This document shows positions 1-33,265 of a stretch of DNA of 33,977 nt, piece by piece; positions within the stretch are counted from its first letter, which is position 1, and the number at the start of each line of letters is the position of its first letter. Origin of the DNA: a virus. Its lineage: Duplodnaviria > Heunggongvirae > Uroviricota > Caudoviricetes. A model generated the notes under the pieces. The model was not told the DNA's origin. It made no database searches and worked only from the letters and a program-made list of their open reading frames with translations. Where the stretch lies: the IMG/VR virus record IMGVR_UViG_2563366805_000007; one strand, given 5' to 3'. The translations under genes were made by a program, and so were the position numbers.

Positions 1-948
1 ATGATTATGCAAAAAATATTACGTATCGACAGTAACGATAATCTCATTGTCGCGTTGAAAGACCTGCACGCTGGAGAATCGTTCTCGTGGGATGACGACA
101 ACATAACGTTAGTAACTGATGTTAAGGCTAAACATAAGTTTGCGACGCAAGATATTCCTCTGGATGGCATTGTTTCGATGTACGGTACGCCAGTTGGCAA
201 GGCCACGCGTCCCATCGTTAAGGGAGAAGCGATTACCGTTGATAATATTCGCCACTATGCAGCTCCTGTCACACTGGAGGATGTTGAACCCTACCACTGG
301 CAGGCACCGGATGTCTCTGAATGGAGCACCCGCACTTTTAAAGGTTATGTCCGTGACGATGGCAGAGTGGGTACTGCCAGTTACTGGTTAGTCTTTCCAT
401 TGGTATTTTGCGAGAACCGTAATGTCAGTACGTTAACCAATGCTTTGAATGATGCTTTGGGTTATACCAATAACTCACTGAAAAAGTTTGCTCTTAATCT
501 GACGTCCGGTAGCGATGAACTGATCGAAACCGCGAGAATGTTTCCGCATATTGAAGGTGTTCGCTGTATTACGGTCACCAGTGGTTGTGGTGGTGCAACT
601 TCAGACTGTGAAACTATGTGCGATGTATTAGCTGCTTATGCTGACCATCCGAATGTAATCGGTATGACGGTATTCAGTTTAGGATGTGAAAAAGCGCAGC
701 AGAAAATGTTTAAGGATGCGCTGGCGAGACGTAATCCTGAATTTGATAAACCTGCGCTCTACTTTCTCCAACAGGAGTGGGACAGCGAAGAGCGGATGAT
801 GCAGACCGCTTTACAGCAGACTTTCGAGGCAATGAAAGCGGTGAAGCCGACAGAAAGAGTAGAGGTCCCTCTTTCCTGTCTCAAAGTGGGTGCCGCGCGC
901 CAATCAAAACGCGACACATTGACAACTAACATTGGATCGCGTTTGTGA
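1..948 (+). CDS. UxaA/GarD-family (altronate/galactarate) dehydratase, N-terminal fragment disrupted by prophage insertion; host-derived part is 1..890, the frame then reads into the phage end to a stop at 946-948
   Basis: Translation shows the N-terminal SAF-like region and the GLGCE motif of the UxaA/GarD family. The protein ends ...PLSCLKVG, exactly where the C-terminal fragment at 33261 resumes with MKCGGSDG (compare E. coli UxaA ...LKFGLECGGSDG, from memory). Confidence 0.7.
   Translation: MIMQKILRIDSNDNLIVALKDLHAGESFSWDDDNITLVTDVKAKHKFATQDIPLDGIVSMYGTPVGKATRPIVKGEAITVDNIRHYAAPVTLEDVEPYHWQAPDVSEWSTRTFKGYVRDDGRVGTASYWLVFPLVFCENRNVSTLTNALNDALGYTNNSLKKFALNLTSGSDELIETARMFPHIEGVRCITVTSGCGGATSDCETMCDVLAAYADHPNVIGMTVFSLGCEKAQQKMFKDALARRNPEFDKPALYFLQQEWDSEERMMQTALQQTFEAMKAVKPTERVEVPLSCLKVGAARQSKRDTLTTNIGSRL
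886..890. repeat. Left copy of the 5-bp target-site duplication GTGGG
   Basis: GTGGG occurs immediately outside both prophage termini (886-890 and 33261-33265); removing the prophage plus one copy restores an in-frame dehydratase ORF. It fits the Mu target consensus N-Y-(G/C)-R-N. Confidence 0.6.
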
Positions 949-955
949 TCATGAT

Positions 956-1510
956 TTATATGTCAGATGCTGGGAATCGTTTGTACAGAGTTGAGATTCC
1001 GACGTCATAAATTAGGGCCACCCTCTGACGAGTTTCGCCAGCCGCTAACAATCTTCCAGCCTGCGCCCACTGTTCAGGTGTTAACTTAGGTCTTCGACCT
1101 CCCACGCGCCCCTCAGCTCGCGCAGCAGCCAGACCTGCACGTGTACGTTCAACAATCAGTTCACGTTCCATCTCGGCCAATGCCCCCATAACATGAAAAA
1201 AGAAGCGCCCCATTGGCGATGAAGTATCTATGCTGTCAGTCAGACTTTTAAAGTTGATACCTCGCTCGCGTAGTTCTTCCACCAGTCCAACCAGATGACG
1301 CATGCTGCGTCCGAGGCGATCAAGCTTCCAGACCACGAGGGTGTCACCTTCAGATAGCGTTCTGAGTACCCGTTTTAGTCCGGGTCTGTCTGAGGTTCTG
1401 CCGCTTATCTTGTCTTCAAAAATCAGCTCACATCCTGCACATTCCAGCGCATTACGCTGTAATGCCGTGTTCTGGTCATTTGTTGATACACGTACATAGC
1501 CAATAAGCAT
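956..1510 (-). CDS. gin: Gin-type serine DNA invertase (G-segment invertase)
   Basis: Translation MLIGYVRVSTNDQN...GDTLVVWKLDRLGRSM...MGRFFFHVMGALAEMERELI is near-identical in motif content to Mu Gin / Hin / Cin resolvase-invertases. The ORF-track start at 1546 is probably an upstream extension; the conserved start is MLIGYVRV at 1510. Confidence 0.9.
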   Translation of the reverse strand: MLIGYVRVSTNDQNTALQRNALECAGCELIFEDKISGRTSDRPGLKRVLRTLSEGDTLVVWKLDRLGRSMRHLVGLVEELRERGINFKSLTDSIDTSSPMGRFFFHVMGALAEMERELIVERTRAGLAAARAEGRVGGRRPKLTPEQWAQAGRLLAAGETRQRVALIYDVGISTLYKRFPASDI

Positions 1511-1527
1511 GGTTAAACTCACTTTAA

Positions 1528-1938
1528 ATGGCGGGAATAATGCCATTTGAGCGACTAACGATCATTATCGAAAACGTTGGTTTGGGAGAAGCAGCTAAAA
1601 GGAATGTAGGTACAGGGGCGAATCAGATACCTGATATGAGCCTGTTCGCGTCAAGTAATACCGCAACGGCTGCTGCGCAAAAATTTCCGTCTGGATTAAT
1701 TTTACAGTGCGGTCAGTTGAATGGCTCCCCGAATGTATCTTCAATATACGGGATGAGGTTCCCGATGACATTCTCAAGAGTCCTTGCTGTCACAGTTACA
1801 TTGAACGTTACTGGCGCGTCAGGGCAGCCGACTGTATCGGCGACAAATGTCCATAACACTGGATTTGATATTACAGTATCGCCCGGTTCAGGATACGGTT
1901 CATCTGCTGATGCGTATTACATTGCAATGGGATATTAA
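1528..1938 (+). CDS. Alternative tail-fibre variable segment (S-prime variable part), promoterless until G inversion fuses it to the constant 5' part of S
   Basis: The ORF runs through the gix site at 1565-1590 and encodes ...VGLGEAAKR..., sharing the GLGE crossover codons with S (...NLGLGEGS...). After inversion between the gix centres the frame is continuous with S codons upstream of 3448. Confidence 0.6.
1565..1590. repeat. gix-like recombination site (right boundary of the invertible G segment in phage orientation)
   Basis: TTATCGAAAACGTTGGTTTGGGAGAA is a 12-2-12 imperfect palindrome resembling Gin/Hin/Cin crossover sites. It is an inverted repeat of 3434-3459, conserved over AAAC-S-TTGGTTT-R-GGAGAAG. 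Confidence 0.75.
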
Positions 1939-1942
1939 CAAA

Positions 1943-2362
1943 ATGTCATATTTTTATTCTGCATCGACAAACGGATTTTATTCGACTGAATTTCACGGCA
2001 CCAATATTCCTGATGATGCAGTGGAAATCTCGGAATCAGAGTGGAAAACACTGATTAATGCACAGAGTGTAACAAAAATGATTACCTGTGGTGAGAACGG
2101 TCATCCTGTCATTGTTGACCGTCCTTCTCCAACACCAGAACAATTAGCCTTAATAAATGATGAAAAGAAATCTGCACTGATAGCAGAGGCAACGAATGTA
2201 ATAGCTCCGCTTCAGGATGCGGTTGATTTAGGTATGGCAACAAATGATGAAACGAAACTGTTACTGGCATGGAAAAAATATCGAGTGCTATTGATGCGTA
2301 TTAATACTTCAACAGCACTCGATATTGAATGGCCTACGCCTCCGGCAGTTCAGGCCAGATGA
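1943..2362 (+). CDS. Tail-fibre assembly protein, alternative copy (U-prime) inside the G segment
   Basis: ATG at 1943 immediately follows the S-prime stop; small acidic protein in the position of Mu U-prime; convergent with U on the opposite strand. Confidence 0.65.
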
Positions 2363-2936
2363 CATCCGGCGCTGTGCTGGTATCTGTTGCCATCACCGCG
2401 TCAATGTAATCCAGCACAGCGTTAAGGCGGGTTGTTTCTGCCTGCGTCAGCTTCCGCCCGGCCTGTAATTTCAGTTGAATCAGACTAATGGAAGCCATTG
2501 CAGCATCAATCAGTGACTGACGCTGTGCTTCTGCCGCTTCGACTGCTGCGCTATGCTGTGCCTCAGTATCTGTTACCCATTTCTCACCATCCCATTTATC
2601 GTATGGCGTTAACGGGGCGATAGTGGTCGTGTTTTCAGGATAATCACCCGGAGCTGTGATTTCTTTTGATTCTCCCGTTTCGGTGTTATAGACAACTTCA
2701 CCGCGATGGTCTGGCACATATTCCCATGAGTTAAAATCTGCTGAGCGGCAGATAGCATAACCAGCTTTATGTGTAACTGGCGCATCTAAACAAGAACATG
2801 CCGGGATACCGACGCCAACAGCAAGATATTCAGTTGATGTAGAAATATATTCCCGCGTTTCACCATCATAATTATAAACGGTAATATCTCCCGTCTTTGT
2901 GGCAATGAGTTCGTTATTTAATACGGCTTTATTCAT
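2334..2936 (-). CDS. Tail-fibre assembly protein (U-like)
   Basis: Immediately downstream of S with an ATGA stop/start overlap; size and position as Mu U tail-fibre assembly chaperone. Confidence 0.7.
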
Positions 2937-3754
2937 CAGGCAGCCCTCACGATATAATTAAAGGCAATGTTACGAGGACGGTTTTCGTTTGCAGTTGGAA
3001 CAATTCTTGAAGCATCAAGGCCAATCACTTTTGGGTAAACAGCGCCATCTGCTCTTTCAGTCACCATACTTCTGATTAAGGAGAAATAACTATTGTTCGT
3101 TGAGGGATTCAAAGGCACCACTGCCCCCTTAAACGAGTCTACTGATTCCCATATTGAATAATTTTCGGTGTTTACAGTCTTGAACTCACCATAGATATTA
3201 CGTATGGCATCGCCCTGAGCTGATAATATTGCCCTCCCCGTATCCATACCACGTCCGTCATCCCAGCCACGAATAAACTCACCACGTAAATCAGGCAATT
3301 TATTTGTCGGGTAAGCCTTTGCCAGTTCTGGGTATTCTTCAGCAGAAAAAGCTGCTCCGTTGCATTTTAGCCAGCCTGTTGGCGGAGTGGCTGAGGGCCA
3401 CGGAACAGGTACGCCAACAGGCAATGCTGAGCCTTCTCCTAAACCAAGGTTTGTGAGAGCCGCCGCGATTGCTGCCGCACCATCTGCTTTAATGTCGCCA
3501 AATGGATTGGAACGACTCAGAAACAGTTTTTTGAGAGCGACCAGAATCTGCGTGTTGTCCATTTTGTCAGGATCAATCCCAGCGGCCTTGAGAATATTGA
3601 GCAGCTCGCTTTGAATGACATTAAACCAGTCCGGTCCGGGATACGTCGGAGGAACGCCATTACCTCCTTCAGTAAAGAAAAGCTCGGTCTCACTGGTGAC
3701 AGGAGACGGTTGTGGCATAACCGGAACACCGGTTGAATTATCTACGTGAAACAT
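2936..3754 (-). CDS. Tail-fibre protein S (constant N-terminus outside the G segment, variable C-terminus with phage tail-collar domain inside it)
   Basis: N-terminus MFHVDNSTGVPVMPQ... resembles Mu S (from memory); the C-terminal part has a tail-collar-like motif LPDLRGEFIRGWDDGRGMDTGR; the gene spans the gix site at 3434-3459. Confidence 0.8.
   Translation of the reverse strand: MFHVDNSTGVPVMPQPSPVTSETELFFTEGGNGVPPTYPGPDWFNVIQSELLNILKAAGIDPDKMDNTQILVALKKLFLSRSNPFGDIKADGAAAIAAALTNLGLGEGSALPVGVPVPWPSATPPTGWLKCNGAAFSAEEYPELAKAYPTNKLPDLRGEFIRGWDDGRGMDTGRAILSAQGDAIRNIYGEFKTVNTENYSIWESVDSFKGAVVPLNPSTNNSYFSLIRSMVTERADGAVYPKVIGLDASRIVPTANENRPRNIAFNYIVRAA
3434..3459. repeat. gix-like recombination site inside S (left boundary of the invertible G segment in phage orientation)
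   Basis: TTCTCCTAAACCAAGGTTTGTGAGAG; its reverse complement aligns with 1565-1590. The centre dinucleotide falls in the Leu codon preceding GLGE. Confidence 0.75.
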
Positions 3755-4344
3755 CAGTTATCTCCTGAAGAATAAAAATATTCGTATGCTGTGCCGCCGA
3801 GACGGTATTTCGTCAGCACACACTCCAGTTCTCTTGCACGTTCGCTCAGAAGCGGTGTCATGACGTTATCGATACAGGTAAAACGTCCGCCGTTGATACC
3901 GATCACATCAATCTGTAACGTCCAGCGATAACGAGCTGGATAAAGGGGATACACGCAGCTACGCATGCAGTGGTGAGGCAGAATGACAGTAACCCGGATA
4001 GTAAATCCAAGCGCGGCAGCCACAGCTTCAATCTGCCACGGGGAAAGGCCACCTTTGCGGTGATACTTCTCCACGACAGCACGACGTCGGTCTTCTACAG
4101 TACCGCTTAACTGCCCACACTCCGGCAGTTCAAGGTATTCCTCCCATTCTTCCAGCAGCATAAATGTTGTTTCTGGCCGCATCTCCGGTAGCAGGTTTTC
4201 TGCATCAAATTCCGTCTGACTTAAACGCCTGGCTAACGCCCGTAAAAAACGGTTTAAATCACCATCCTCATCGCGTGACCACGCTTTGCCACGTGGCATG
4301 ACCTGCCATAAAGCGCCCAGCCATTCATCTACACTGTGGGCCAT
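3754..4344 (-). CDS. Tail/baseplate protein (Mu gp48-like)
   Basis: Position between the baseplate J-like gene and S; translationally coupled to both neighbours. Confidence 0.6.
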   Translation of the reverse strand: MAHSVDEWLGALWQVMPRGKAWSRDEDGDLNRFLRALARRLSQTEFDAENLLPEMRPETTFMLLEEWEEYLELPECGQLSGTVEDRRRAVVEKYHRKGGLSPWQIEAVAAALGFTIRVTVILPHHCMRSCVYPLYPARYRWTLQIDVIGINGGRFTCIDNVMTPLLSERARELECVLTKYRLGGTAYEYFYSSGDN

Positions 4345-5405
4345 GTCAGCACTCCGATAGTGATAAGTTCATTCTGAGCACAGGGAATGTCAGCGGTCAG
4401 ATTCAGCGTGTAATCCGTCACGCCAGATGCGGTGCCGATAGCAGTGCGAATCGCTGAAATGGGCAGCGTTTGTCCTGGTTGCAGCGTCTTCTGAAGCGTC
4501 AACAGGCGGGACTGGACAGCTTTACGCGTGGCCGGTGTATCCGGTGTTATGCCAATAATCATATTGACGGGACGGAGCACCAGTTCCACGGGCCAGACTT
4601 CTATTCCTCCAGGTTTACCAACCCATACGCCAGTCGCCGGGTCGGTATGACGGAAAAGGTAATCTTCCATATTTTTCCGGTCCTGATATCCGGGGGTAAT
4701 CACTGAACGATCGTCATAAACCCATGCCAGTCCGATTGTGCAGGGACCATGCCAGGCATCAAATGCCCACGCCCGACTGACACCAGCCATTTCTCGCGCC
4801 CAGATGACATAGTCATGCACAGCCCCACCAACGGGGGGATTGCGTTTACGGAATAAAAGCCGGTCAAGCAATTCAGAAACTGGCTCAATATCCGAACCAC
4901 CGATGATGCCTCCCGTACCCGTTAAACCAATACTTTCCACGCCGGGAACGGGGGACAGCAGGGTCAGGCTTTCACCTTCCGGAAGGTTTCCTGACGCGCC
5001 GGCATCGCTGGCCTGAATGGTTACAGTCATGACCCCATCTACAGGAACGCCGGAAGTCGTCACGGCATAAACAATACCGGTAGCGGTTTGCATCTCCATA
5101 TCTTCCGGCAGCGGTGTATTCCCTTTAAATACCGCCGGCCCCGTAGCAAACGTGGCCTGTTTTCTGACGACGCCTTCGCTGGCCGCAGTCTCAATGATGG
5201 TTTCATCATCAGATTTAACAGACGGAATAATCTGGTCTTTAATCCAGCTCTGATGGTCGTATAAATCACGAACCTGATTGCTGAATGAGGTATTTAGAGC
5301 TTTCTCAACGCCTACTGGCGGAAGTTTTTGCAGCCCCAGTTCAAAGGCAATATCTTTTTCGCCGTCAGTAATAAGCTTGCGCAGCGCGGGAACGTTATAA
5401 GGCAT
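4329..5405 (-). CDS. Baseplate J-like protein (Mu gp47-like)
   Basis: 358-aa protein in the baseplate module, of size and character typical of the Baseplate_J family. Confidence 0.75.
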   Translation of the reverse strand: MPYNVPALRKLITDGEKDIAFELGLQKLPPVGVEKALNTSFSNQVRDLYDHQSWIKDQIIPSVKSDDETIIETAASEGVVRKQATFATGPAVFKGNTPLPEDMEMQTATGIVYAVTTSGVPVDGVMTVTIQASDAGASGNLPEGESLTLLSPVPGVESIGLTGTGGIIGGSDIEPVSELLDRLLFRKRNPPVGGAVHDYVIWAREMAGVSRAWAFDAWHGPCTIGLAWVYDDRSVITPGYQDRKNMEDYLFRHTDPATGVWVGKPGGIEVWPVELVLRPVNMIIGITPDTPATRKAVQSRLLTLQKTLQPGQTLPISAIRTAIGTASGVTDYTLNLTADIPCAQNELITIGVLTWPTV

Positions 5406-5847
5406 TAGCAGTGGACTCCCAGCGTTTACTTATTTCAATCCGGAGCGTCGTTTTATCCGGGCGGGTTAGAATGACAATAAAATTAATTCGGTCATTGCCG
5501 CTTATAGTGGCTGTGACTGCTGCATTACGCGCATAACCAGAACGTAAAAGCGGTTGCATAGAAAGCAGTGCATAATCTTCCACCCGCATTCTGACGGATT
5601 CCGTCAGCTTCTCGCGATCCAGCAACCAGAGTTTCGATCCCCACGGATAATCACTAAATGTGTCGCCGGGCCAGCCTCTCGGGTCCGATGAGTTATCAGG
5701 AATAATGTCATCAGTATCAGCACGGACGTCGGTGAAAAGACAAATCAGAACCAAAGTGACCAGTCCTTCATCACGCGATAAACCATCATGGTTAATTGTC
5801 AGTTCACCTCTGGAGAGTTGATTATTCCAGCTGATACCAATAGTCAT
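5395..5847 (-). CDS. Baseplate protein (Mu gp46-like)
   Basis: 150-aa ORF overlapping both neighbours in the baseplate operon. Confidence 0.65.
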   Translation of the reverse strand: MTIGISWNNQLSRGELTINHDGLSRDEGLVTLVLICLFTDVRADTDDIIPDNSSDPRGWPGDTFSDYPWGSKLWLLDREKLTESVRMRVEDYALLSMQPLLRSGYARNAAVTATISGNDRINFIVILTRPDKTTLRIEISKRWESTANAL

Positions 5848-6386
5848 TTCATCTCCGATGTTTTTTTGCCATCCCCGTCCATATGGAAATGCTCAAGAAC
5901 AGATTTACCGGCGACCTGAATATCATTTGAAAATACAGATGGGCCGTTAACTTTTAATAATTTTGTATTTATCGCAAACAATTCGCCGGCATCGTAATTA
6001 ACCGATTTCCCTTTAACGTCGATAAGACCACCTTTTTTCAGGGTGATATAAGACTGACCATCGCCGTGATATAACCTGACCTCTCCATCCTCCAGACCTT
6101 TTGGACGACAGCGCTTGTCTTCAACAGCGATTGCCACCAGACCTTCCCGGCGTCCCCCCACTGCCAGAATGAGTGCTTCTGAACCGACTGGCGGCACAGA
6201 CGTCAGGCCGTAGTTCTGGAAACGTTCAACATCATCATTGGTGGAATCCGCCAGAGACTGGATCTGGAGGTTCTGACGCCCGAGACTGTCTGTAACGATA
6301 CGAACAACGGCCCTGTCAACGAGCAATCGCAGCCGGCGTCCAATACCTTCAAGTGTGCGACCGATATTTGCCGGATTCAGTCCCAT
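5844..6386 (-). CDS. Baseplate assembly protein V / spike-like (Mu gp45-like)
   Basis: 180-aa protein directly downstream of the hub gene P. Confidence 0.65.
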   Translation of the reverse strand: MGLNPANIGRTLEGIGRRLRLLVDRAVVRIVTDSLGRQNLQIQSLADSTNDDVERFQNYGLTSVPPVGSEALILAVGGRREGLVAIAVEDKRCRPKGLEDGEVRLYHGDGQSYITLKKGGLIDVKGKSVNYDAGELFAINTKLLKVNGPSVFSNDIQVAGKSVLEHFHMDGDGKKTSEMK

Positions 6387-24727: not shown

Positions 24728-24728
24728 A

Positions 24729-25397: not shown

Positions 25398-25415
25398 CAT
25401 TGTATTGGCTATAAC

Positions 25416-25739: not shown

Positions 25740-25743
25740 ATTA

Positions 25744-26151: not shown

Positions 26152-26675
26152 GTGCGCACCTTTCTTACTTTACTGGAATACAGGCTGTTGATGGCGTCAT
26201 AACCCCGATTATCCTGAAATGCCAGGTCTCGCGGACTCAGCGCCTCTGTCATTTCTCTCAGGTGCCATTGCTTGAGGCTTTCCAGCACCATCAGAAGATT
26301 ATCGCCACGGCACCATGCCAGGCTGGCGATACCTTTACCTTTGTTGGTTCTGACAGTCATCTTCGCGACGAACGAATCGAGTGAGGTATCGCTGCCATCA
26401 CGGATAAACCCATCAAGATGCATCTGCCGCCAGATGCTGCGGACCTTTGCGGTGATATCTGTCTCACGATGACGGCGAGCCGGAGAACGGGGACGGGTAC
26501 GAATGAAACCCTTATCCTCCAGTACCTTCAGCACATCCTCCAGTTGGCCGACTCTCAGGTCACGACAGCTTTGCTTTCCCGTCACTCGCATCAGTACAGA
26601 GCGGTAGGTGTCATCGTCCAGTTGTAGATTGCGACGGGCAACATGGATTAACTTAATCAGGGATGCGCGGCTCAT
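26148..26675 (-). CDS. gemA: GemA-like regulatory protein (Mu gp16 family)
   Basis: MSRASLIKLIHVARRNLQLDDDTYRSVLMRVTGKQSC... resembles the Mu GemA N-terminus (from memory); immediately upstream of mor. Confidence 0.7.
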   Translation of the reverse strand: MSRASLIKLIHVARRNLQLDDDTYRSVLMRVTGKQSCRDLRVGQLEDVLKVLEDKGFIRTRPRSPARRHRETDITAKVRSIWRQMHLDGFIRDGSDTSLDSFVAKMTVRTNKGKGIASLAWCRGDNLLMVLESLKQWHLREMTEALSPRDLAFQDNRGYDAINSLYSSKVRKVRT

Positions 26676-27324: not shown

Positions 27325-27398
27325 ATTTAGTTGCCTGCGGGTGCACGAAGCCCCGGCAGGCATACCGTATTAAAATTCTGAGAATCAAAGAAAGTTAA

Positions 27399-27926
27399 TT
27401 AATCAGTTACAGTTTGTTCAAATGGGATTATTTCAAAATCCTCAACATCTGATTTAATGGATATCCCTGCAATTCCCTTAACTTCATTCGGTGATGCAAG
27501 AATTGCCTCTTTATTAATTTCCTCTTTATTGCGAAGAAATTTACCCAGGCTGAATTTCTTGAGTAACGCAATAACATCTTCAACTTTGCGAATGGTGACG
27601 CTGGGCGGGCGCTTACGCCAGCGAACTTCGCCCGTTGTCAGGTTGGCCGTCTTGGTCTTACCGTCTTTCGTAAGCTCTGCACGGTTGGCTTCACACCACG
27701 TCTGGACGCCAGTTTGTAAGCGGCCCAGCTCTTTCTTGAGCGCTTCAATTCCGGGAGCGGCGTCGTTAGTCAGCTCGGCCAGTTTGTCATTCAGTTCTGT
27801 TTCACGGCGCAAAATGACACGGGTGATGTCGCCAATTTTTCGGATATCGTTAATCACGTCTTCACGTGACTGCGGAACGGCCACTGCCGCAGCAGACTTG
27901 GCTCGTGGTTTTTTAGGTGCTTTCAT
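27399..27926 (-). CDS. gam: Host-nuclease inhibitor protein Gam (Mu Gam, Ku-like DNA-end binding)
   Basis: 175 aa; ...VPQSREDVINDIRKIGD...GVQTWCEANRAELTKDGKTKTANLTTGEVRWRKRPPSVTIR...QEINKEAIL...IPFEQ tracks Mu Gam closely (from memory). Confidence 0.85.
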   Translation of the reverse strand: MKAPKKPRAKSAAAVAVPQSREDVINDIRKIGDITRVILRRETELNDKLAELTNDAAPGIEALKKELGRLQTGVQTWCEANRAELTKDGKTKTANLTTGEVRWRKRPPSVTIRKVEDVIALLKKFSLGKFLRNKEEINKEAILASPNEVKGIAGISIKSDVEDFEIIPFEQTVTD

Positions 27927-27933
27927 ATCAACC

Positions 27934-28185
27934 TCAGTGTTTGATTATTTTACGGTTATCCTGCTCCACCCTTGCTTTCACAAACGTGGTGACCTGCTGG
28001 ATCGCCATCGGGAAAATAGCTGACAGACCTTCAGCAACCAGAAACGAAAATGAACCATCATCATTTGTGTTATTAAGATGAAACTGAATATTGAGTTTCC
28101 CTTCAGGTAGTTCGTTATTAATTGATTTGTCACTTTTCTGAACGATGCCATCCTCAATGACAATGGTGATAACCTGTTTAGCCAT
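27934..28185 (-). CDS. Hypothetical early protein
   Basis: 83-aa ORF with AAGGA RBS; comparatively AT-rich; no family assignable. Confidence 0.5.
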   Translation of the reverse strand: MAKQVITIVIEDGIVQKSDKSINNELPEGKLNIQFHLNNTNDDGSFSFLVAEGLSAIFPMAIQQVTTFVKARVEQDNRKIIKH

Positions 28186-28189
28186 TGTT

Positions 28190-28465
28190 TTAATCCTTAT
28201 TCAGTAATGCGCGTTCAACATAAAAACAGAACTTTGTCAGAGCCACTCCGGCTTCGTTCTGGGTGGCTGCTTCAGGAATCCCCGGAACCAGTAGCTGCCC
28301 AGGGGCATATCCGTGGCGTGCGTAAACATTTATGACCTCCCGGAGCCGCTTGTGATGACGGGCGCTCGCGATAGGTAAAGCGCCTTCCGGGAGTGTCTGA
28401 CCAAATTCAATCAGCCCGCTGGCCCACGCATAAGCGATTAATATTGATTGCTGTTTCTCAGTCAT
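28190..28465 (-). CDS. Hypothetical early protein
   Basis: 91-aa ORF with RBS, coupled to its neighbours. Confidence 0.5.
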   Translation of the reverse strand: MTEKQQSILIAYAWASGLIEFGQTLPEGALPIASARHHKRLREVINVYARHGYAPGQLLVPGIPEAATQNEAGVALTKFCFYVERALLNKD

Positions 28466-28479
28466 AAAAAACCTTTAAG

Positions 28480-28770
28480 TTAGCTGTCGCGATAAACGAT
28501 GTTAAAAACCTGACGACGGGACATTTCCATTTTTTCTGCGATGATCGCAACGGTCAGCCCCTCCTTATAAAGCTCACGGCATAAATACGCATCATGCTCG
28601 TCCTCTGTACGAATACGCAGTGACAGTCCAAGACGAAGAGCGCAATTCTGAACGGACTGTTTTGTACGTCCCAGTTGCTGAGCCAGCCCGATAACACTGA
28701 CTTTCCCTGCACTCTGCTCAAGAATGCGAAGCTCTTCGGGGGACCATGTTTTACCCGTTCTCCACCCCAT
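28480..28770 (-). CDS. Putative helix-turn-helix DNA-binding protein (early region)
   Basis: Start MGWRTG preceded by GGAGG; two HTH-like segments, the C-terminal one (LTVAIIAEKMEMSRRQVFNIVYRD) resembling Mor/C-type HTHs. Confidence 0.5.
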   Translation of the reverse strand: MGWRTGKTWSPEELRILEQSAGKVSVIGLAQQLGRTKQSVQNCALRLGLSLRIRTEDEHDAYLCRELYKEGLTVAIIAEKMEMSRRQVFNIVYRDS

Positions 28771-28772
28771 GC

Positions 28773-29012
28773 TTACCTCCAGATAATCCGGCAACCTTCC
28801 AGACTGGCGACCCAGACGGAGCGGGTGCCACCGTTGTGTGATTCAGCAATGCGCTCTGCGCTGTTAAGCAGCTCAACCGGCGGGCAGGCAATCTCCAGCA
28901 GCGGGCGACGCATAAACACCCGAACGTCAGTCACGCGACTGCCACGCGCACGCAGCCAGTTCTGCGCCGCTTCTGCCATGCTGATGTGCTCTGCAATACG
29001 TTCGGCGATCAT
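28773..29012 (-). CDS. Hypothetical early protein at the position of Mu kil
   Basis: 79-aa ORF starting MIAERIAE with AGGAG nine nt upstream, directly after the B stop. The longer ORF-track version from 29090 overlaps B. Confidence 0.5.
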   Translation of the reverse strand: MIAERIAEHISMAEAAQNWLRARGSRVTDVRVFMRRPLLEIACPPVELLNSAERIAESHNGGTRSVWVASLEGCRIIWR

Positions 29013-29016
29013 GATG

Positions 29017-29955
29017 TCACTCCTCTCCGATACCGCTGTGGCCCAGCTCCAGCATGGCGGACTGGATGTGCGCCGTGCCAATGGTCTCACCCTTGCCCTG
29101 AGCGTAAATTCCGGCCAGCGGCAGGATGTGCGACAGAGAACGCAGCGCCCCCGGACGTCGGGCGATAGCCTTCAGCAGCTTGCGTTCGTCAGCGCCGGTG
29201 ACCTGCCAGGCATCGCAGAAGCTGTCCACGTCACCAGCGGAAACGGTATTGATGACGTACTTCTTGGACACGCGGGAGAACAGGCGGGCAAAATCCACGC
29301 TGCGCTGGCCGCCGGTAAGACGGTCATAGACCTTGTGGTTACCCACCAGTGCCAGCCCCACGCCACATTCCTCCTGGAGAATACGCAGCTCTTCCACCGC
29401 ATCCAGACTCAGCCAGTCGGCTTCATCCACCACTATCAGGCCGCGCGTGTCCGGCAGACGCTGGCGCAGCAGGCGAGAGAGTGCACCACGGCGGTATGGC
29501 GCATCGCTGATGCCCATTTTCAGGGCCAGTTCATACAGGGTCTCCAGCTCATTGCTGCGGGATTTGCTGGCGGTGATGTGCCAGACGTTATTACCGCCTG
29601 CGGCATACTGCCGGATAGCCTTTGTCTTACCCACGCCCGGATTGCCGTAAACCAGCACAATCGTCCCGGCCAGCTGCGCCCACGTCAGGGTGGCGAGGAT
29701 TTTCTGAGAGGTCGGTGTCTCAACGAAATCAGGGGCCACCGGAAGCGTGGTTTTCGCGGCGTTGTGACTTTCAAGCCAGGTATTCAGGCTGGCAGCTACG
29801 GTGTCATTGTCACCTTTGTATTTCCCGTTCAGGAACTGTGAAACCGTCGCGGTTGATGTACCGGTCTCACGCGCCAGCGCTGCACCGGAAATCGTCTTGC
29901 TGTCGATAAGTTCACGAATGGCACTGCGCACAACATCATGGTTAATTTGCGTCAT
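29017..29955 (-). CDS. B: MuB-like ATP-dependent target-DNA activator (AAA+ ATPase)
   Basis: 312 aa; N-terminal HTH, Walker A GNPGVGKT and Walker B LIVVDEAD; immediately downstream of the transposase. Confidence 0.85.
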   Translation of the reverse strand: MTQINHDVVRSAIRELIDSKTISGAALARETGTSTATVSQFLNGKYKGDNDTVAASLNTWLESHNAAKTTLPVAPDFVETPTSQKILATLTWAQLAGTIVLVYGNPGVGKTKAIRQYAAGGNNVWHITASKSRSNELETLYELALKMGISDAPYRRGALSRLLRQRLPDTRGLIVVDEADWLSLDAVEELRILQEECGVGLALVGNHKVYDRLTGGQRSVDFARLFSRVSKKYVINTVSAGDVDSFCDAWQVTGADERKLLKAIARRPGALRSLSHILPLAGIYAQGKGETIGTAHIQSAMLELGHSGIGEE

Positions 29956-30050
29956 GATTATTAATCCTGTATTTTTTAAATGGCCTGTAATTATTCAGGT
30001 GTTAAAACTGATTCACTTAATTCAGAAGCGGCGCTCACTACGTCGCTTTT

Positions 30051-32033
30051 TTATTTCCGTGCCTGTTTAGCCTTATTAACAAACTGCTGGAAAATAACGT
30101 CGTTTTCGCTCTGCGTTTCCTGTATGTCCTCCACGCGCTTGACGGTGTTGCCCAGGGTAAATACTCGCTCCACCACATGCCGCTCCGGCAGTTCTGCATG
30201 CTCAGTCTTCGGCAGCAGGTCATTCACCTCAATCGCCGTCATACGGTTCAGAGCCTTAGTCGCTTTCTTCGTACTCTTGATCATCTCGCGGCGTGCACGG
30301 TTGTGTTCACGTCCAGCCTCGGTATCGCCAAAGGCCACGGCGGCACGACACTCAGCCATGCAAAGGAAACGGCCGTCGAGGTCATAACAGGCGACTTCTC
30401 CGTGCAGGTTCCTTGGATCAAACCGGACGGTGATTTTGCGCGAGCGGTGGCTGACGAGCTGTTCACTCCAGTAAGTATTCTTACGGCCAAATAACGAGCC
30501 CCCGCACTCCATCGTAAATTCGCCTGTAGTCTTCACGCGTACAGCTTCCGCAGGCAGCATCAGTTGACGAATTTGCTCTTCGGTCATACGGGTGATGACT
30601 GACTGGCTGTAGCTGCGCTCAAACGCCTGGTCGAAGGACAGTTCCCCCCGGCACATCTCGGTCTCGCGCCCGGCCTTCGCGTTGAACATGGCGACACCTT
30701 CGCTGATGGTTTCCAGGAATGTATCCACATCCACCGCCAGGCTGCCGTAGTTCTCTGGCTTGGAGCTGACGTTTTCACCGGCAAATGCTCCAGCCAGCGC
30801 AGGATGTTTGTCGATATATTCGCCCAGACCGCCCACGCCGAAGGCACGTTCAACGGGCTTTGCCTGTCCCCAGCCCTTACCGCCAATCACCCCCGTCCAG
30901 TGCAGCTTCATTCCCAGCAGAGGGATGATCCCCATCGGGTCATCAGGTTTGACTTTGAAGCGGTAACGGTTAGGAACGCCACCGGACAGCCATTTATTTG
31001 CAGCAGCGCGGGTGTTATCGATGGTCACATGTTTAGGCTTACCGTAAGCGCGGATGGTATCCATCAGGGATAAACGGATGCTGTCACTGTTCTCCGACAA
31101 ATCAGCACGCCAGCCAATAATTTTGCGACTGTGGACATCCTGCCAGAACCACGTTTTAGGACGGATGATGTCGCCGTTAAACCAACGGACAAACACGTTG
31201 TGCTGGTAACCGTCGCCATTGATCCACTCCATCGCATGAAGATATGCCACGGTGCGCTGCTGCGACGGATACATCTGCGCCAGCGCGTTCTCGCCCTCAC
31301 GGGTGGCAACGACGATACGCGGATCAACTTCACGTTCTAGCTTGCGGCGCAGAGTGCGCTCAGCGGGAATAATCCAGCCATGAGCATCTGCCGCCTTTTC
31401 AAGGCGCTCATAGCTTTTGGAGAAGAACGGCGCTTCGTTTCGCAGATAATCGCCCAGGAAGAACTGCCAGGCATCTTCAGAGATATCGGCAGTCCGGCCA
31501 GTCTGACGTTTTTCACGCACACGGCGGTCAAGCAGTACCGGACCCCAGAGGTCAGGACTATGGTCTTTGACTTTGTAGTAAAGATTGCGCAGCGTACCTT
31601 CACTGATTTGCAGCTGTTTTGCTGCCAGCGTGATCGCCTTACGATTGCCGATGCCGGAAGCCATCAGTTCCGCCACCAGCGCGGCAGCTTTAGTCCGGCG
31701 TTCTGCATGCAGACGCTGCTCGCCGGTAGCTTTCTCCCATGCAGACCACAGTCGCTGGCGTTCCAGATCGTCAGCCGCCACGCGCTCAGGCTCCTGTGGC
31801 AATGTAATCAGCCCGGATGATGTTTCAATCAGGCCACGTGCGGCCAGCAGTTCAGCGCGGACTTCAGGTGGCAACACCGATATGTGGTATTCGAATGCTT
31901 TGGTGCCAGCACGTTTACGGCGTAGTTCACTACGTCCACTGACAAAAGACTCCAAATGTTTTCTGACGTTCTTTTCTGCATTAGGAAAAGAACAAATTCC
32001 TACGCATTCTTTTGCGGTAACCCAGAAATCCAT
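30051..32033 (-). CDS. A: MuA-like DDE transposase
   Basis: 660 aa; N-terminus MDFWVTAKECVGI..., internal ...WQFFLGDYLR..., ...HAMEWINGDGYQHNVFVRWFNGDIIRPKTWFWQDV..., ...GKGWGQAKPVERAFGVGGL... are co-linear with Mu A (from memory). Confidence 0.9.
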   Translation of the reverse strand: MDFWVTAKECVGICSFPNAEKNVRKHLESFVSGRSELRRKRAGTKAFEYHISVLPPEVRAELLAARGLIETSSGLITLPQEPERVAADDLERQRLWSAWEKATGEQRLHAERRTKAAALVAELMASGIGNRKAITLAAKQLQISEGTLRNLYYKVKDHSPDLWGPVLLDRRVREKRQTGRTADISEDAWQFFLGDYLRNEAPFFSKSYERLEKAADAHGWIIPAERTLRRKLEREVDPRIVVATREGENALAQMYPSQQRTVAYLHAMEWINGDGYQHNVFVRWFNGDIIRPKTWFWQDVHSRKIIGWRADLSENSDSIRLSLMDTIRAYGKPKHVTIDNTRAAANKWLSGGVPNRYRFKVKPDDPMGIIPLLGMKLHWTGVIGGKGWGQAKPVERAFGVGGLGEYIDKHPALAGAFAGENVSSKPENYGSLAVDVDTFLETISEGVAMFNAKAGRETEMCRGELSFDQAFERSYSQSVITRMTEEQIRQLMLPAEAVRVKTTGEFTMECGGSLFGRKNTYWSEQLVSHRSRKITVRFDPRNLHGEVACYDLDGRFLCMAECRAAVAFGDTEAGREHNRARREMIKSTKKATKALNRMTAIEVNDLLPKTEHAELPERHVVERVFTLGNTVKRVEDIQETQSENDVIFQQFVNKAKQARK

Positions 32034-32269
32034 TATGCAACCTCTTTGACTGATACAGCTTCATAACGTGAGGGCCAAATATCTCTGGGGGTAAGCCCCA
32101 GAAACTCAGCAATAATTTTTTCCCCTTTCGGCCAGTGGTGGCGGAATACATTTCGTAATGTTGATTCCGCTAATCCGTTGCTTCTGGAGAGCTGACTGGT
32201 AGTCATCCCACGTTTCCTAATCGCTGCTTTGATGTCTTCCGGGTGCCAGTCTTGGCTTTTGGTCATCAT
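32033..32269 (-). CDS. ner: Ner-like DNA-binding protein (early negative regulator)
   Basis: 78 aa; ...DWHPEDIKAAIRKRGMT...LRNVFRHHWPKGEKIIAEFLGLTPRDIWPSRY matches Mu Ner / Nlp family; its stop overlaps the A start (TAATG). Confidence 0.8.
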   Translation of the reverse strand: MMTKSQDWHPEDIKAAIRKRGMTTSQLSRSNGLAESTLRNVFRHHWPKGEKIIAEFLGLTPRDIWPSRYEAVSVKEVA

Positions 32270-32500
32270 TCTGCGATCCTTAAATGTTTACACGTTCAGG
32301 TCAGCAATATCGCTAACCACTACGAGTAAAGATTAGAACACAAAAGAACGAAAGTAAATACTTTTGCGTACTTTTATGGTTGATGAGGTTAACCATGATA
32401 TTTTATTTAAAATCAATTCGTTACTTGATTTTCCGTGGTTAATCACAAAAAAGTACCAGATGTATTTTTCAATAACACAGAAAAGTACGGTGAATGATAT
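32270..32500. promoter_or_regulatory. Divergent c / ner control region (operator, early promoter, probable transposition enhancer)
   Basis: AT-rich; GTACTTTT/AAAAGTAC motifs at 32359-32365, 32368-32375, 32449-32456 and 32481-32488, plus palindrome AAAGTAAATACTTT at 32351-32364; lies between divergently transcribed ner and c. Confidence 0.5.
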
Positions 32501-32963
32501 GGTTGATTTTAGTGAATGGGTGTCAGTTCAGGATTGTATTGGTCTACCAGGTTTCCCCAGTGGAGCGCCGAATGTCCGGCGGAAACTGGAACAACTTGTG
32601 AGTAATAATCCTAAGTTGAAACGTAAGAAGGCTAAATCGAAAGCATATGAATATCATGTATCGGTCTTGCCAGAAGAAACAAAGAAATTCTTGGGGGTAG
32701 AAGAGCGCTCAGTTATACCTGACTCAGCCTTATCGTCACCAAGCTCAACAGCTCGGGACCTATGGATAATGCTTTTCGACAACTTAACAGAGCGTCAAAA
32801 ACAGTATGTTATTAAGGTTTTCATGCAAGGTGGGCTGAACGCTTTAATGCCGATGGTAGCTGATTTGGAAGCCAGTGCAGATAGAGAGATTTTTGAACAA
32901 CGTGATCCCAATGAACAGATTCAAGCCGCGCCGAAGCTGAGCACGCGAAATAAAGCTGGCTGA
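32460..32963 (+). CDS. c: Mu-type repressor c (start uncertain; open frame from 32364)
   Basis: ...EWVSVQDCIGLPGFPSGAPNVRRKLEQL...KAYEYHVSVLPEE... is homologous to the N-terminal DNA-binding domain of the transposase in this window (FWVTAKECVGICSFP...KAFEYHISVLPPE), the known relationship between Mu repressor and MuA; transcribed toward the phage left end. Confidence 0.7.
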   Translation: MYFSITQKSTVNDMVDFSEWVSVQDCIGLPGFPSGAPNVRRKLEQLVSNNPKLKRKKAKSKAYEYHVSVLPEETKKFLGVEERSVIPDSALSSPSSTARDLWIMLFDNLTERQKQYVIKVFMQGGLNALMPMVADLEASADREIFEQRDPNEQIQAAPKLSTRNKAG

Positions 32964-33260
32964 TTGCAAAAGTGCTCAATTGGCTGGCTTTACCTTCGCA
33001 CCTCCTGTGGGCATTTTAAGCTGAGTTTAAATCCCGTTAAACGCTTTGAAATTAACTGCTATACGATCCAAATCTATGTGACACTTAACTGGCTTCGCTA
33101 TCGAATGATCCAAAATTGACGATATGCCAGATTTTCCACAAGTCGAGTAGCTTAACGTTGTGCGAAGCCTCACAACTCAAGCCTTCCTCCCGTTAATTCC
33201 CATGAATTCCCGGTTATTCCCGGGTTCTCTGTTTGATCCATACATCACTGTCACTAGTCA

Positions 33261-33265
33261 GTGGG
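33261..33265. repeat. Right copy of the 5-bp target-site duplication GTGGG
   Basis: Identical pentamer to 886-890, immediately outside the CA-3' prophage terminus at 33260. Confidence 0.6.

What the first reader, a model, noticed from the sequence alone, without database searches (positions are those of the whole stretch)
886..33265. Mu-like transposable prophage inserted in a sugar-acid dehydratase gene, with both junctions resolvable to the base
The ORF at 1..948 and the ORF at 33261..33977 are the two halves of one UxaA/GarD-family gene (LKVG | MKCGGSDG). Joining 1..890 to 33266..33977 gives a continuous 534-codon frame. The intervening 32.4 kb begins TG (891) and ends CA (33260) and is flanked by direct GTGGG repeats, which fit the Mu target preference N-Y-(G/C)-R-N. 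Inside, gene order is Mu-like. This is a recent-looking, probably intact transposable phage that has knocked out a catabolic gene.
Basis: partly seen in the sequence, partly recalled or inferred. Interest (0 to 1): 0.7.

Follow-up and report, generated by a model that had tools for sequence, protein, structure and literature searches.

The report
Mu-like transposable prophage splitting a dehydratase gene
An apparently intact 32.4-kb virus that inserts by transposition, like phage Mu, has split a sugar-acid dehydratase gene in one E. coli strain; the call is right and precise to the base, but it is an ordinary example of a well-known kind of element.

Summary
GTGGG lies at 886-890 and 33261-33265. 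The 32,370-bp insert runs from TG at 891 to CA at 33260. Joining 1..890 to 33266..33977 restores a 533-codon UxaA/GarD-family gene that is 100% identical over 1602 nt to an uninterrupted gene, found in 510 of 5426 complete E. coli genomes.

The same phage (99.9-100% identical, identical termini) sits at three other chromosomal sites in three other E. coli strains. A roughly 85% relative sits in narX. Each insertion has a different 5-bp duplication (GCCAT, GCCAG, ACCGT, GCCGT), and all five fit N-Y-S-R-N.

The element encodes a MuA-type DDE transposase (51% identical to MuA, catalytic D-D-E kept), MuB, Ner, a Mu-type repressor, Kil, Gam, GemA and Mor. It also has Mu-ordered head and tail genes and a Gin invertase with a tail-fibre segment that is found flipped in another strain. 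All 46 genes are open.

It is not Mu, D108 or SfMu. Its late genes are closest to Klebsiella phage Kp4866-3 and Vibrio phage martha, and it lacks com/mom and the late activator C.

Verdict: a real and recent insertion, and a new member of a known kind. Interest is modest.

The parts
1..890 (+). 5' part of the host UxaA/GarD-family dehydratase gene (codons 1-296 plus two bases). The window ORF runs on into phage DNA and stops at 948.
   Evidence: The same truncated 315-aa product is called in GCA_000408565.1 and SRR640077.
886..890 (.). Left copy of the 5-bp target-site duplication, GTGGG
   Evidence: The empty allele has a single copy.
891..33260 (-). Mu-like transposable prophage, 32,370 bp. 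Genes run on the minus strand, so the Mu 'left' (c) end is at 33260 and the 'right' (gin) end at 891.
891..955 (-). Right end (attR side). The terminal sequence TGCCGCGCGCCAATCAAAACGCGACAC resembles Mu R1. No com/mom genes lie between gin and the end.
   Evidence: The terminal 40 nt are identical in 3 other insertions, and the terminal 30 nt shown in the ECONIH5 relative. An R1-like site scores 14/20 against the Mu consensus. No Mu com/mom homologue was found.
956..1546 (-). Gin-type serine DNA invertase (the PGAP start corresponds to 1510)
   Evidence: 80% identical to Mu Gin. Pfam Resolvase + HTH_7.
1565..1590 (.). gix-like crossover site next to gin (TTATCGAAAACGTTGGTTTGGGAGAA)
   Evidence: The homology breakpoint with the flipped ECONIH4 copy falls here.
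1578..3446 (.). Invertible tail-fibre (G-like) segment. It holds Sv + U (2936-3446 and 2334-2936, minus strand) and the alternative Sv' + U' (1528-1938 and 1847-2362, plus strand).
   Evidence: The segment is inverted in ECONIH4 relative to the window. Flipping it in silico gives an in-frame 222-aa alternative fibre sharing 107 N-terminal residues, followed by its own assembly gene. PHROG tail fibre and tail-fibre-assembly hits.
3434..3459 (.). Second gix-like site, inside the tail-fibre gene. It is inverted relative to the first (20/26 identical), and the central TT matches.
2936..3754 (-). Tail-fibre gene S in the current orientation (272 aa)
   Evidence: The N-terminus is 40% identical to Mu S. 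PHROG tail-fibre hits.
3754..13236 (-). Baseplate and tail genes: gp48, gp47, gp46, gp45, P, N, tape measure, gp41, M (tube), L (sheath), gp38
   Evidence: Collinear blastp hits to Mu at 24-52%. PGAP names. PHROG tape-measure hit. Pfam DNA_circ_N.
13217..17349 (-). Head completion and head genes: gp37-like, G, gp36, an unknown gene, major head protein T (15496-16389), protease/scaffold I (16393-17349)
   Evidence: Mu-like_gpT, E = 2e-109
17448..17483 (-). Block similar to the arm of the Mu strong gyrase site, lying in the central 203-bp gap
   Evidence: Local alignment score 37 against a shuffle mean of 16.5 (sd 2.3), with 0 of 1000 shuffles reaching it. It lies at fraction 0.488 from the c end, as in Mu (0.488). 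It is also conserved in Kp4866-3.
17410..17430 (-). Pm-type Mor box TACAGTGAAGCCGGTTAATCC, 60 nt upstream of gene I
17553..22066 (-). Packaging genes: short F (minor head), portal (DUF935/Portal_Mu), large terminase, gp27 small terminase
22056..25319 (-). Small late and lysis-region genes: gp26 and gp25 (DUF2730) homologues, a TraR/DksA zinc-finger protein, three unknowns, a gp18 homologue, and a GH108 endolysin (24729-25319) in place of Mu lys
25384..25404 (-). Pm-type Mor box TACAATGAAGCCGGTTAATCC. It overlaps a terminator-like hairpin and lies 64 nt upstream of the endolysin gene.
   Evidence: The same element lies at Mu 9177, just after mor.
25416..29955 (-). Early and semi-essential region: unknown 107-aa gene, mor (25744-26151), gemA, unknown 218-236-aa gene, gam (27399-27926), three small genes, gp9-like, kil (28773-29012), and the MuB ATPase (29017-29955)
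30051..32033 (-). MuA-family DDE transposase, 660 aa
   Evidence: 51% identical to MuA end to end. Pfam HTH_Tnp_Mu_1 + HTH_Tnp_Mu_2 + DDE_2 + Mu-transpos_C. The residues aligned with D269, D336 and E392 are conserved.
32033..32269 (-). ner homologue
   Evidence: 51% identical to Mu Ner. Pfam HTH_35.
32270..32498 (.). Probable operator/enhancer region between ner and the repressor gene. It is A+T-rich and contains repeated (A)AAAGTAC motifs.
   Evidence: Position only; function inferred.
32364..32963 (+). Repressor (c-like). The longest ORF is 199 aa, but the real start is probably the ATG at 32499.
   Evidence: Pfam HTH_Tnp_Mu_1. PHROG transcriptional repressor, aligned from residue 44. Translation.
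32964..33260 (-). Left end (attL side). The terminus reads TGACTAGTGACAGTGATGTATGGATC..., followed by four GGGAA-type repeats with a 10-bp period (33186-33222).
   Evidence: The terminal 40 nt are identical in three other insertions, and the terminal 30 nt shown in the ECONIH5 relative. Sequence.
33261..33265 (.). Right copy of the 5-bp target-site duplication, GTGGG
33266..33977 (+). 3' part of the host UxaA/GarD-family dehydratase gene (the C-terminal GD_AH_C domain)

Best explanation
Positions 891-33260 are a complete, apparently functional, temperate transposable phage of the Mu type. It entered this E. coli strain (assembly GCA_000408565.1) by infection.

How it integrated: its MuA-family DDE transposase, helped by the MuB ATPase, joined the 3'-OH of the terminal CA at each phage end to staggered positions 5 bp apart in the target. 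Repair of the gaps produced the GTGGG duplication. The target lay between the second and the C-terminal domain of an accessory UxaA/GarD-family sugar-acid dehydratase gene, which is therefore inactivated.

How it is maintained and grows (inferred): a Mu-type repressor at the c end keeps it silent. On induction it should replicate by transposition and package by the headful. It can switch host range by Gin-mediated inversion of a 1.9-kb tail-fibre segment.

What is shown: the exact ends; the restoration of the empty site; the same ends at four other sites, each with its own 5-bp duplication; the gene content and the catalytic residues; and the two orientations of the fibre segment.

What is inferred: present-day inducibility, replicative transposition, headful packaging, and the loss of a catabolic phenotype.
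For: Empty site:
- The joined flanks are 100% identical over 1602 nt to an intact gene present in 510 of 5426 E. coli genomes.

Transposition, not site-specific integration:
- The same phage, with identical terminal 40-mers, lies in a lambdoid tail gene in ECONIH4 (TSD GCCAT), near yiiE/yiiF in EC09 (GCCAG) and in a DUF932 gene in CAVP776 (ACCGT).
- A relative, ~85% identical in the early-region query, with the same termini, lies in narX of ECONIH5 (GCCGT).
- With GTGGG, five of five duplications fit N-Y-(G/C)-R-N. The chance of that is (1/8)^5, about 3e-5.
- ECONIH4 carries the phage elsewhere and has an intact UxaA gene.

Machinery:
- The transposase is 51% identical to MuA over 660 aa, has all four Mu transposase Pfam domains, and keeps the residues aligned with D269, D336 and E392.
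- The MuB homologue is 47% identical, with GNPGVGKT and DEAD motifs and the Phage-MuB_C domain.
- Ner, Kil, Gam, GemA and Mor are 51-63% identical to Mu, and 33 of 48 ORFs hit Mu proteins in the same order.

Intactness and recency:
- The window has an open frame for each of the 46 PGAP CDS of EC09 with a window counterpart.
- The copies are 99.88-99.98% identical outside the fibre cassette.
- No complete genome shares the junction.
- The junction is seen in an NCBI assembly and in an independent Logan assembly of SRR640077.

Invertible segment:
- It is flipped in ECONIH4, bounded by gix-like sites with matching central TT, and both orientations are in frame.
Against: - There are no experimental data. 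Induction, virions and new transposition events are not shown.
- Relative to Mu it lacks com/mom, the late activator C and the Mu endolysin.
- The Mu transposase-site consensus is recognisable only once, at R1, scoring 14/20, and not at the left end. The end-binding sites are therefore not mapped.
- A point mutation in a regulatory site or a missense change could make it defective without breaking any ORF.
- The source is a draft scaffold.
Confidence: 0.95

Rival explanations
1. It is a Mu-like prophage that integrated by transposition as described, but it is now defective (cryptic). It cannot be induced or form infectious particles and survives only as a passenger.
For: - Nothing here tests function.
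- It lacks C and mom relative to Mu.
- One sister copy, in ECONIH4, has already been hit by an IS66 element in a fibre-assembly gene, so decay of this lineage does occur.
Against: - All 46 genes are open.
- Four copies in four strains at four sites are 99.9% or more identical. That requires very recent movement of a working phage.
- The same single-activator, mom-less layout is found in Vibrio phage martha 12B12 and Klebsiella phage Kp4866-3, both deposited as phage genomes. The 'missing' genes are therefore normal for the lineage.
Confidence: 0.15
2. It is a prophage or island that integrates site-specifically, with GTGGG as the core of an attachment site recognised by a recombinase.
For: Direct repeats flank the element, and a serine recombinase gene sits at one end.
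Against: - Five insertions lie at five unrelated loci with five different 5-bp repeats.
- The recombinase is 80% identical to the Mu Gin invertase, and its sites bound the fibre segment, not the phage.
- No tyrosine integrase is present.
Confidence: 0.01
3. The junctions are an assembly artefact that joins a phage contig to two halves of a gene.
For: The source assembly is a draft scaffold.
Against: - The junctions are precise and symmetrical, with a 5-bp duplication, TG/CA ends and an exact frame. That is what transposition produces and not what misassembly produces.
- The left junction is reproduced in an independent assembly of the reads (Logan SRR640077).
Confidence: 0.01

Closest known systems
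Escherichia phage Mu (NC_000929), with D108 and Shigella phage SfMu (genus Muvirus)
   Same: - Same mechanism and layout: TG...CA ends, 5-bp duplication at N-Y-S-R-N targets, and a divergent repressor/ner switch at the left end.
- Same order of genes: A, B, kil, gam, gemA, mor, then packaging, head, tail and baseplate genes.
- A Gin invertase (80% identical) with an invertible tail-fibre segment.
- A Pm-type Mor box after mor, and a central block like the strong gyrase site at the same fractional position.
   Different: - Only 24-67% protein identity (80% for Gin), 51% for the transposase.
- About 2.2 kb of 32.4 kb aligns at the DNA level, at 68-76% identity apart from one 36-bp stretch at 92%.
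- 4.3 kb shorter.
- No com/mom and no C.
- A GH108 endolysin instead of Mu lys.
- The repressor is not detectably similar to Mu c by blastp.
- G lies after gp36 instead of before I, and F is short.
- The fibre segment is 1.9 kb, bounded by 26-bp sites rather than 34-bp repeats.
Klebsiella phage Kp4866-3 (OK490420, unverified record, 33.1 kb)
   Same: It is the closest deposited phage. It is collinear, with 50-87% protein identity across the late region (terminase 80%, sheath 76%), and has the same GH108 lysin, TraR/DksA zinc-finger gene, single Mor gene, Mor box upstream of the lysin, and central gyrase-site-like block.
   Different: It has no gin or invertible segment. Gam and neighbouring early genes are not shared. 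The transposase aligns only over the first 145 residues in that record.
Vibrio phage martha 12B12 (NC_021070) and Shewanella phage vB_SspM_MuM16-2: small (31-34 kb) Mu-like myoviruses
   Same: - The late genes are closer to these phages than to Mu (terminase 68-69% against 48%).
- Same compact size.
- martha also has a single Mor/C-family activator, the DksA-like zinc finger followed by DUF2730, and no gin or mom gene annotated in its record.
   Different: They infect marine hosts. martha has a LexA-type repressor, no gin fibre switch, and different early accessory genes.
Identical or near-identical unnamed prophages in E. coli ECONIH4, EC09 and CAVP776, and the ~85% relative in ECONIH5
   Same: The same phage, 99.9-100% identical with the same termini, annotated gene by gene by PGAP.
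   Different: The insertion sites and duplications differ. The tail-fibre alleles and the segment orientation differ. The ECONIH4 copy carries an IS66 insertion.

Membership tests
Mu-like transposable phages (transposition-integrating Caudoviricetes) | MuA-family DDE transposase with Mu end- and enhancer-binding domains and an intact catalytic D-D-E | tested here: met
   Pfam HTH_Tnp_Mu_1, HTH_Tnp_Mu_2, DDE_2 (E = 7e-111) and Mu-transpos_C. 51% identical to MuA over the full length. The residues aligned with D269, D336 and E392 are conserved.
Mu-like transposable phages (transposition-integrating Caudoviricetes) | MuB-type AAA+ target-capture ATPase next to the transposase gene | tested here: met
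   47% identical to MuB. Pfam Phage-MuB_C + AAA_22. Walker A GNPGVGKT and a DEAD motif are conserved.
Mu-like transposable phages (transposition-integrating Caudoviricetes) | Element ends 5'-TG...CA-3', identical in all copies | tested here: met
   Both terminal 40-mers are exact in three other genomes, and the ECONIH5 relative has the same termini.
Mu-like transposable phages (transposition-integrating Caudoviricetes) | 5-bp target-site duplication whose sequence differs from one insertion to the next | tested here: met
   GTGGG, GCCAT, GCCAG, ACCGT, GCCGT
Mu-like transposable phages (transposition-integrating Caudoviricetes) | Many unrelated insertion sites with the N-Y-(G/C)-R-N preference | tested here: met
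   Five loci: uxaA-like gene, lambdoid tail gene, yiiE/yiiF region, DUF932 gene, narX. Five of five fit the pentamer rule, p about 3e-5. The rule itself is taken from established knowledge of Mu.
Mu-like transposable phages (transposition-integrating Caudoviricetes) | Replicative transposition during lytic growth, and headful packaging with variable host DNA at both ends | not testable with these tools
   Needs induction and sequencing of virion DNA.
Mu-like transposable phages (transposition-integrating Caudoviricetes) | Mu-type order of regulatory, packaging, head and tail genes | tested here: met
   33 of 48 ORFs hit Mu proteins, collinearly. Pfam Mu-like_gpT, Portal_Mu, Phage_Mu_Gam, GemA, Mor, DNA_circ_N.
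Genus Muvirus (Mu, D108, SfMu) | High genome-wide nucleotide similarity to Mu (genus-level thresholds are about 70%) | tested here: not met
   Only about 2.2 kb aligns with Mu, at 68-76% identity apart from one 36-bp stretch at 92%. No Mu, D108 or SfMu hit appeared among the listed megablast matches.
Genus Muvirus (Mu, D108, SfMu) | com/mom DNA-modification module at the right end, and a separate late activator C | tested here: not met
   No blastp hit to Com, Mom or a second Mor/C-family protein. Only 65 bp separate gin from the end. Pfam Mor hits only 25744-26151 among the candidates tested.
Gin/Hin/Cin (Din) invertible-segment host-range switch | Serine invertase, two inverted 26-bp crossover sites with identical central dinucleotide, alternative in-frame fibre C-termini, and both orientations observed | tested here: met
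   The Fis-dependent enhancer inside gin was not examined.
UxaA/GarD (altronate/galactarate dehydratase) family: the host gene | SAF N-terminal domain + GD_AH_second + GD_AH_C domains in one polypeptide of about 500-530 aa | tested here: met
   Pfam E-values of 2e-11, 5e-31 and 1e-83 on the joined product. PGAP names it 'UxaA family hydrolase'. The substrate is unknown.

The most novel reading that the evidence does not exclude
This lineage may run its lytic programme with a single Mor/C-family activator. In that reading the Mor homologue (25744-26151) would act directly at Pm-type boxes upstream of the lysis operon (25384-25404) and the head operon (17410-17430), and perhaps at the core motif upstream of the tape-measure gene (10774-10784). 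That would make a two-step cascade (early, then Mor, then everything late) instead of Mu's three steps (early, Mor, C, late). Mu's separate middle stage would then be a later elaboration. The same lineage would also show that the central strong gyrase site is conserved, in sequence and in fractional position, far outside Mu itself.
Probability: 0.4. Interest if true: 0.4.

Novelty: new member of a known kind. Interest (0 to 1): 0.3.

Why it matters
For the scan, this is a clean positive control. A reader working from raw sequence placed both junctions of a 32-kb transposable prophage to the base, and the tools confirm it.

Biologically it documents a second, rarely seen lineage of Mu-like phage active in E. 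coli. The exact phage is in 3 of 5426 complete genomes, plus 2 relatives at about 85% identity. Five independent insertions reproduce Mu's pentamer target rule.

The phage is a natural insertional mutagen. It has knocked out a dehydratase gene here, narX in ECONIH5, and genes of other mobile elements in two further strains.

The lineage could also serve as a compact comparison partner for Mu on two questions: how late transcription is wired without C, and whether the central gyrase site is a general feature of transposable phages.

None of this overturns current understanding.

Tried and rejected
- Megablast of 25 kb of the phage against 50,697 phage records found no full-length relative. The only matches were Kp4866-3 at 75% over 27% of the query and mosaic tail-fibre pieces. 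'It is Mu, D108 or SfMu' is therefore rejected.
- A scan with the Mu 22-bp transposase-site consensus recovers all six known sites in Mu but only one weak site here (R1-like, 14/20). I could not map L1-L3 or R2-R3, and my by-eye motifs (ATCA.AAACGCGA) remain unproven.
- A search for long inverted repeats around the fibre segment found none. The boundaries came instead from a gix-like pattern search and from the homology breakpoints with the flipped copy.
- Left-end DNA of the closest transposase relatives (Kluyvera and Phytobacter, 69-70% identity) shows no alignable att or immunity region. It was of no use for finding conserved end sites.
- A junction-spanning query found no complete E. coli genome with this insertion. 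The source was found instead through the truncated gene product.
- Rfam gave no hit at gathering thresholds.
- Pfam and PHROG searches of the genes between mor and the packaging genes found no hidden C homologue.
- Searches were input errors and gave no result.

Full report
**1. The observation**

The window has GTGGG at 886-890 and again at 33261-33265. The sequence between them begins with TG (891) and ends with CA (33260), and is 32,370 bp long.

Removing it together with one GTGGG copy gives one open frame of 533 codons plus a stop. The frame reads ...SCLKVG|MKCGGSDG... across the joint. Pfam assigns the product the full galactarate/altronate dehydratase architecture: SAF, GD_AH_second and GD_AH_C. 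The break falls between the last two domains.

The joined 1602 nt match an uninterrupted 'UxaA family hydrolase' at 100% identity, without a gap. The gene is present at 99% identity or more in 510 of 5426 complete E. coli genomes. The two flanks are therefore one locus, and the empty site exists with a single GTGGG.

**2. Host context**

In strain ECONIH4 the intact gene is the last gene of a small accessory island between rlmB and yjfI. The island holds an IclR-type regulator, a DHDPS-family gene, an MFS transporter and the dehydratase.

That the island is catabolic for a sugar acid is an inference from these families. Because the gene is last in its cluster, polar effects on the neighbours are unlikely.

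The window itself comes from NCBI assembly GCA_000408565.1, scaffold KE137155.1. An independent assembly of run SRR640077 reproduces the left junction. No complete E. coli genome in the collection carries this junction. The insertion is therefore private to one isolate, and the flanks are mutation-free relative to the empty allele. Both facts point to a recent event.

**3. What the insert is**

All phage genes except the repressor and the alternative fibre genes lie on the minus strand. The Mu 'left' end is therefore at 33260.

Reading from that end, the order is:
- a repressor carrying the Mu DNA-binding domain HTH_Tnp_Mu_1, and ner (51% identical to Mu Ner);
- a 660-aa transposase and MuB (47%);
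- kil (55%), a gp9-like gene, gam (56%), gemA (51%) and mor (63%);
- a GH108 endolysin, and gp18, gp25, gp26 and gp27 homologues;
- large terminase (48%), portal, a short F, protease I and major head protein T (36%);
- gp36, G, gp38, sheath L (43%), tube M, gp41, tape measure, N, P and gp45-gp48;
- tail fibre S, assembly protein U, the alternative U' and S', and gin (80%).

The transposase aligns with MuA from residue 1 to the end at 51% identity. It has all four Mu transposase Pfam domains and keeps the residues aligned with D269, D336 and E392. MuB keeps its Walker A and DEAD motifs.

The window has an open frame for each of the 46 CDS that PGAP annotates in the near-identical EC09 copy and that have a window counterpart.

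**4. Direct evidence for transposition**

The early region of the phage is 100% identical in three complete genomes. I located both ends in each. The terminal 40-mers are exact in all of them, but the sites differ.

| Strain | Insertion site | 5-bp duplication |
|---|---|---|
| Window source (GCA_000408565.1) | UxaA-family dehydratase gene | GTGGG |
| ECONIH4 | tail-assembly gene of a lambdoid prophage | GCCAT |
| EC09 | yiiE/yiiF region | GCCAG |
| CAVP776 | DUF932 gene of an island | ACCGT |
| ECONIH5 (~85% relative, same termini) | narX | GCCGT |

All five pentamers fit N-Y-(G/C)-R-N, the known Mu target preference. By chance this would happen with probability (1/8)^5, about 3e-5.

ECONIH4 carries the phage elsewhere and has an intact dehydratase gene. 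This excludes site-specific integration and makes an assembly artefact very unlikely.

**5. The tail-fibre switch**

No long inverted repeats flank the fibre region. Two 26-bp sites of the gix/hix type lie at 1565-1590, next to gin, and at 3434-3459, inside the fibre gene. They are in inverted orientation, 20 of 26 positions are identical, and both have a central TT.

In ECONIH4 the DNA between them is inverted relative to the window, and the homology breakpoints fall exactly at these sites. Flipping 1578-3446 in silico replaces the last 165 residues of the 272-aa fibre with a different 115-residue C-terminus. The new C-terminus is in frame and is followed by its own assembly gene.

The variable parts differ between copies. 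They are 85-97% identical to fibre and assembly genes of SfI, SfII, SfIV, P2 and HK97, which is the usual mosaic exchange of host-range modules.

**6. Relationship to known phages**

It is not Mu, D108 or SfMu. Only about 2.2 kb aligns with Mu at the DNA level, and protein identities are mostly 25-63%.

The late genes are closer to Klebsiella phage Kp4866-3 (terminase 80%, collinear). They are also closer to the small Mu-like myoviruses Vibrio phage martha 12B12 and Shewanella MuM16-2 (68-69%) than to Mu (48%).

Among species-representative genomes, the closest transposases are in Kluyvera and Phytobacter (69-70%), with about 90% on two short Trabulsiella contigs.

Compared with Mu, the phage lacks com/mom, since gin is only 65 bp from the end. 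It also lacks the late activator C and Mu's endolysin. martha has the same single-activator layout, and no mom is annotated in its record. These absences therefore mark the lineage rather than decay.

Every gene has a PHROG family, several with full-length near-perfect matches, and RefSeq already annotates the sister copies. It is therefore a new, unnamed member of a known kind.

**7. Features noticed on the way**

(a) Mor boxes. A 21-nt motif, TACA(A/G)TGAAGCCGGTTAATCC, occurs exactly twice in the window. One copy lies 64 nt upstream of the endolysin start and the other 60 nt upstream of gene I. None is expected by chance. Its core is also found upstream of the tape-measure gene.

The same element sits in Mu at 9177, immediately after mor and 56 nt upstream of gp18. 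That is where the Mor-dependent middle promoter Pm lies. A Mor dimer binds a dyad element centred at -43.5 in Pm (PMC4390567, PMC4287176). The assignment of that element to this sequence is my inference from its position.

Together with the single Mor/C gene, this suggests that Mor drives the late operons directly.

(b) Gyrase-site-like block. The 203-bp gap in the middle of the phage contains a 36-nt block similar to the arm of Mu's strong gyrase site. The alignment scores 37 against 16.5 +/- 2.3 for shuffles, with 0 of 1000 shuffles reaching it. The block lies at fraction 0.488 of the genome in both phages and is conserved in Kp4866-3.

(c) Periodic repeats at the left end. The left end carries four GGGAA-type repeats with a 10-bp period. 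Similar repeats occur at the Mu, ECONIH5-relative and Kp4866-3 left ends.

**8. Verdict**

This is an intact-looking, recently inserted Mu-like transposable prophage that disrupts an accessory dehydratase gene.

Confidence in the identity and mechanism of insertion is about 0.95. Confidence that it is still inducible is about 0.7-0.8.

It is a new member of a known kind, and interest is modest (0.3). The most novel reading not excluded is the two-step Mor-only transcription cascade together with a conserved central gyrase site (probability about 0.4).

Noticed in passing
window 25384-25404 and 17410-17430 (minus strand); core also at 10774-10784: A 21-nt motif, TACA(A/G)TGAAGCCGGTTAATCC, lies 64 nt upstream of the endolysin gene and 60 nt upstream of protease gene I. 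The same element sits in Mu right after mor, in the region of the middle promoter. The phage has only one Mor/C-family gene and no C, so Mor may drive the late operons directly.
   Followed up: partly
window 17448-17483, in the central gap 17350-17552: A 36-nt block is similar to the arm of the Mu strong gyrase site. It lies at the same fractional genome position (0.488) as in Mu and is also conserved in Klebsiella phage Kp4866-3.
   Followed up: partly
window 1565-3459; L004 (ECONIH4): The Gin-invertible tail-fibre segment is bounded by 26-bp gix-like sites rather than long repeats. It is flipped in ECONIH4. The variable fibre alleles differ among otherwise 99.9%-identical copies and are 85-97% identical to SfI, SfII, SfIV, P2 and HK97 fibre-assembly genes.
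   Followed up: yes
window 891-955: Only 65 bp separate gin from the right end, and there is no com/mom DNA-modification module. No mom is annotated in Vibrio phage martha, and none was found in Kp4866-3.
   Followed up: partly
window 33186-33222: Four tandem 10-bp-period repeats (CGGGAATAAC, CGGGAATTCA, TGGGAATTAA, CGGGAGGAAG on the minus strand) lie just inside the left terminus. Comparable periodic GGGA repeats occur at the left ends of Mu, the ECONIH5 relative and Kp4866-3. They might form a bend or a protein-binding array in the attL spacer.
   Followed up: no
L004 774-3151 (ECONIH4, NZ_CP026399 597773-600150); L001 11261-11500: The ECONIH4 copy of the phage has an IS66 element inserted in a tail-fibre assembly gene. 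That copy is itself inserted in the tail-assembly gene of a lambdoid prophage, so mobile elements are nested within mobile elements.
   Followed up: partly
L093 3148-35125 (ECONIH5, NZ_CP026202): A relative, ~85% identical in the early-region query, with identical termini, interrupts narX, the nitrate sensor kinase gene. Its duplication is GCCGT. This is a second case of this lineage inactivating a chromosomal gene.
   Followed up: partly
window 30051-32033 and 32364-32963: Gene starts look mis-set in RefSeq sister copies. PGAP calls a 634-aa transposase, but the alignment with MuA begins at residue 1 of the 660-aa ORF. The repressor ORF of 195-199 aa probably starts at the ATG at 32499, because family alignments begin at residue 44. 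That start would leave a 229-bp operator region, like Mu's.
   Followed up: partly
window 32350-32490: Repeated (A)AAAGTAC / GTACTTTT motifs occur in both orientations between ner and the repressor gene. They are candidate operator/enhancer sites.
   Followed up: no
L009 (ECONIH4, NZ_CP026399 2618415-2634016): The disrupted gene belongs to a four-gene accessory island (IclR regulator, DHDPS-family gene, MFS transporter, UxaA-family dehydratase) between rlmB and yjfI. The dehydratase gene is present in only about 9% of complete E. coli genomes. In ECONIH4 an IS2 element sits between the regulator and the operon. The substrate is unknown.
   Followed up: no
window 26653-27363: A 218-236-aa early gene between gam and gemA has no Pfam hit and no Mu or Kp4866-3 homologue. 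Its C-terminal ~100-140 residues match the C-termini of eight other PHROG families of unknown function, several of them larger proteins, so this looks like a shared domain of unknown role.
   Followed up: no
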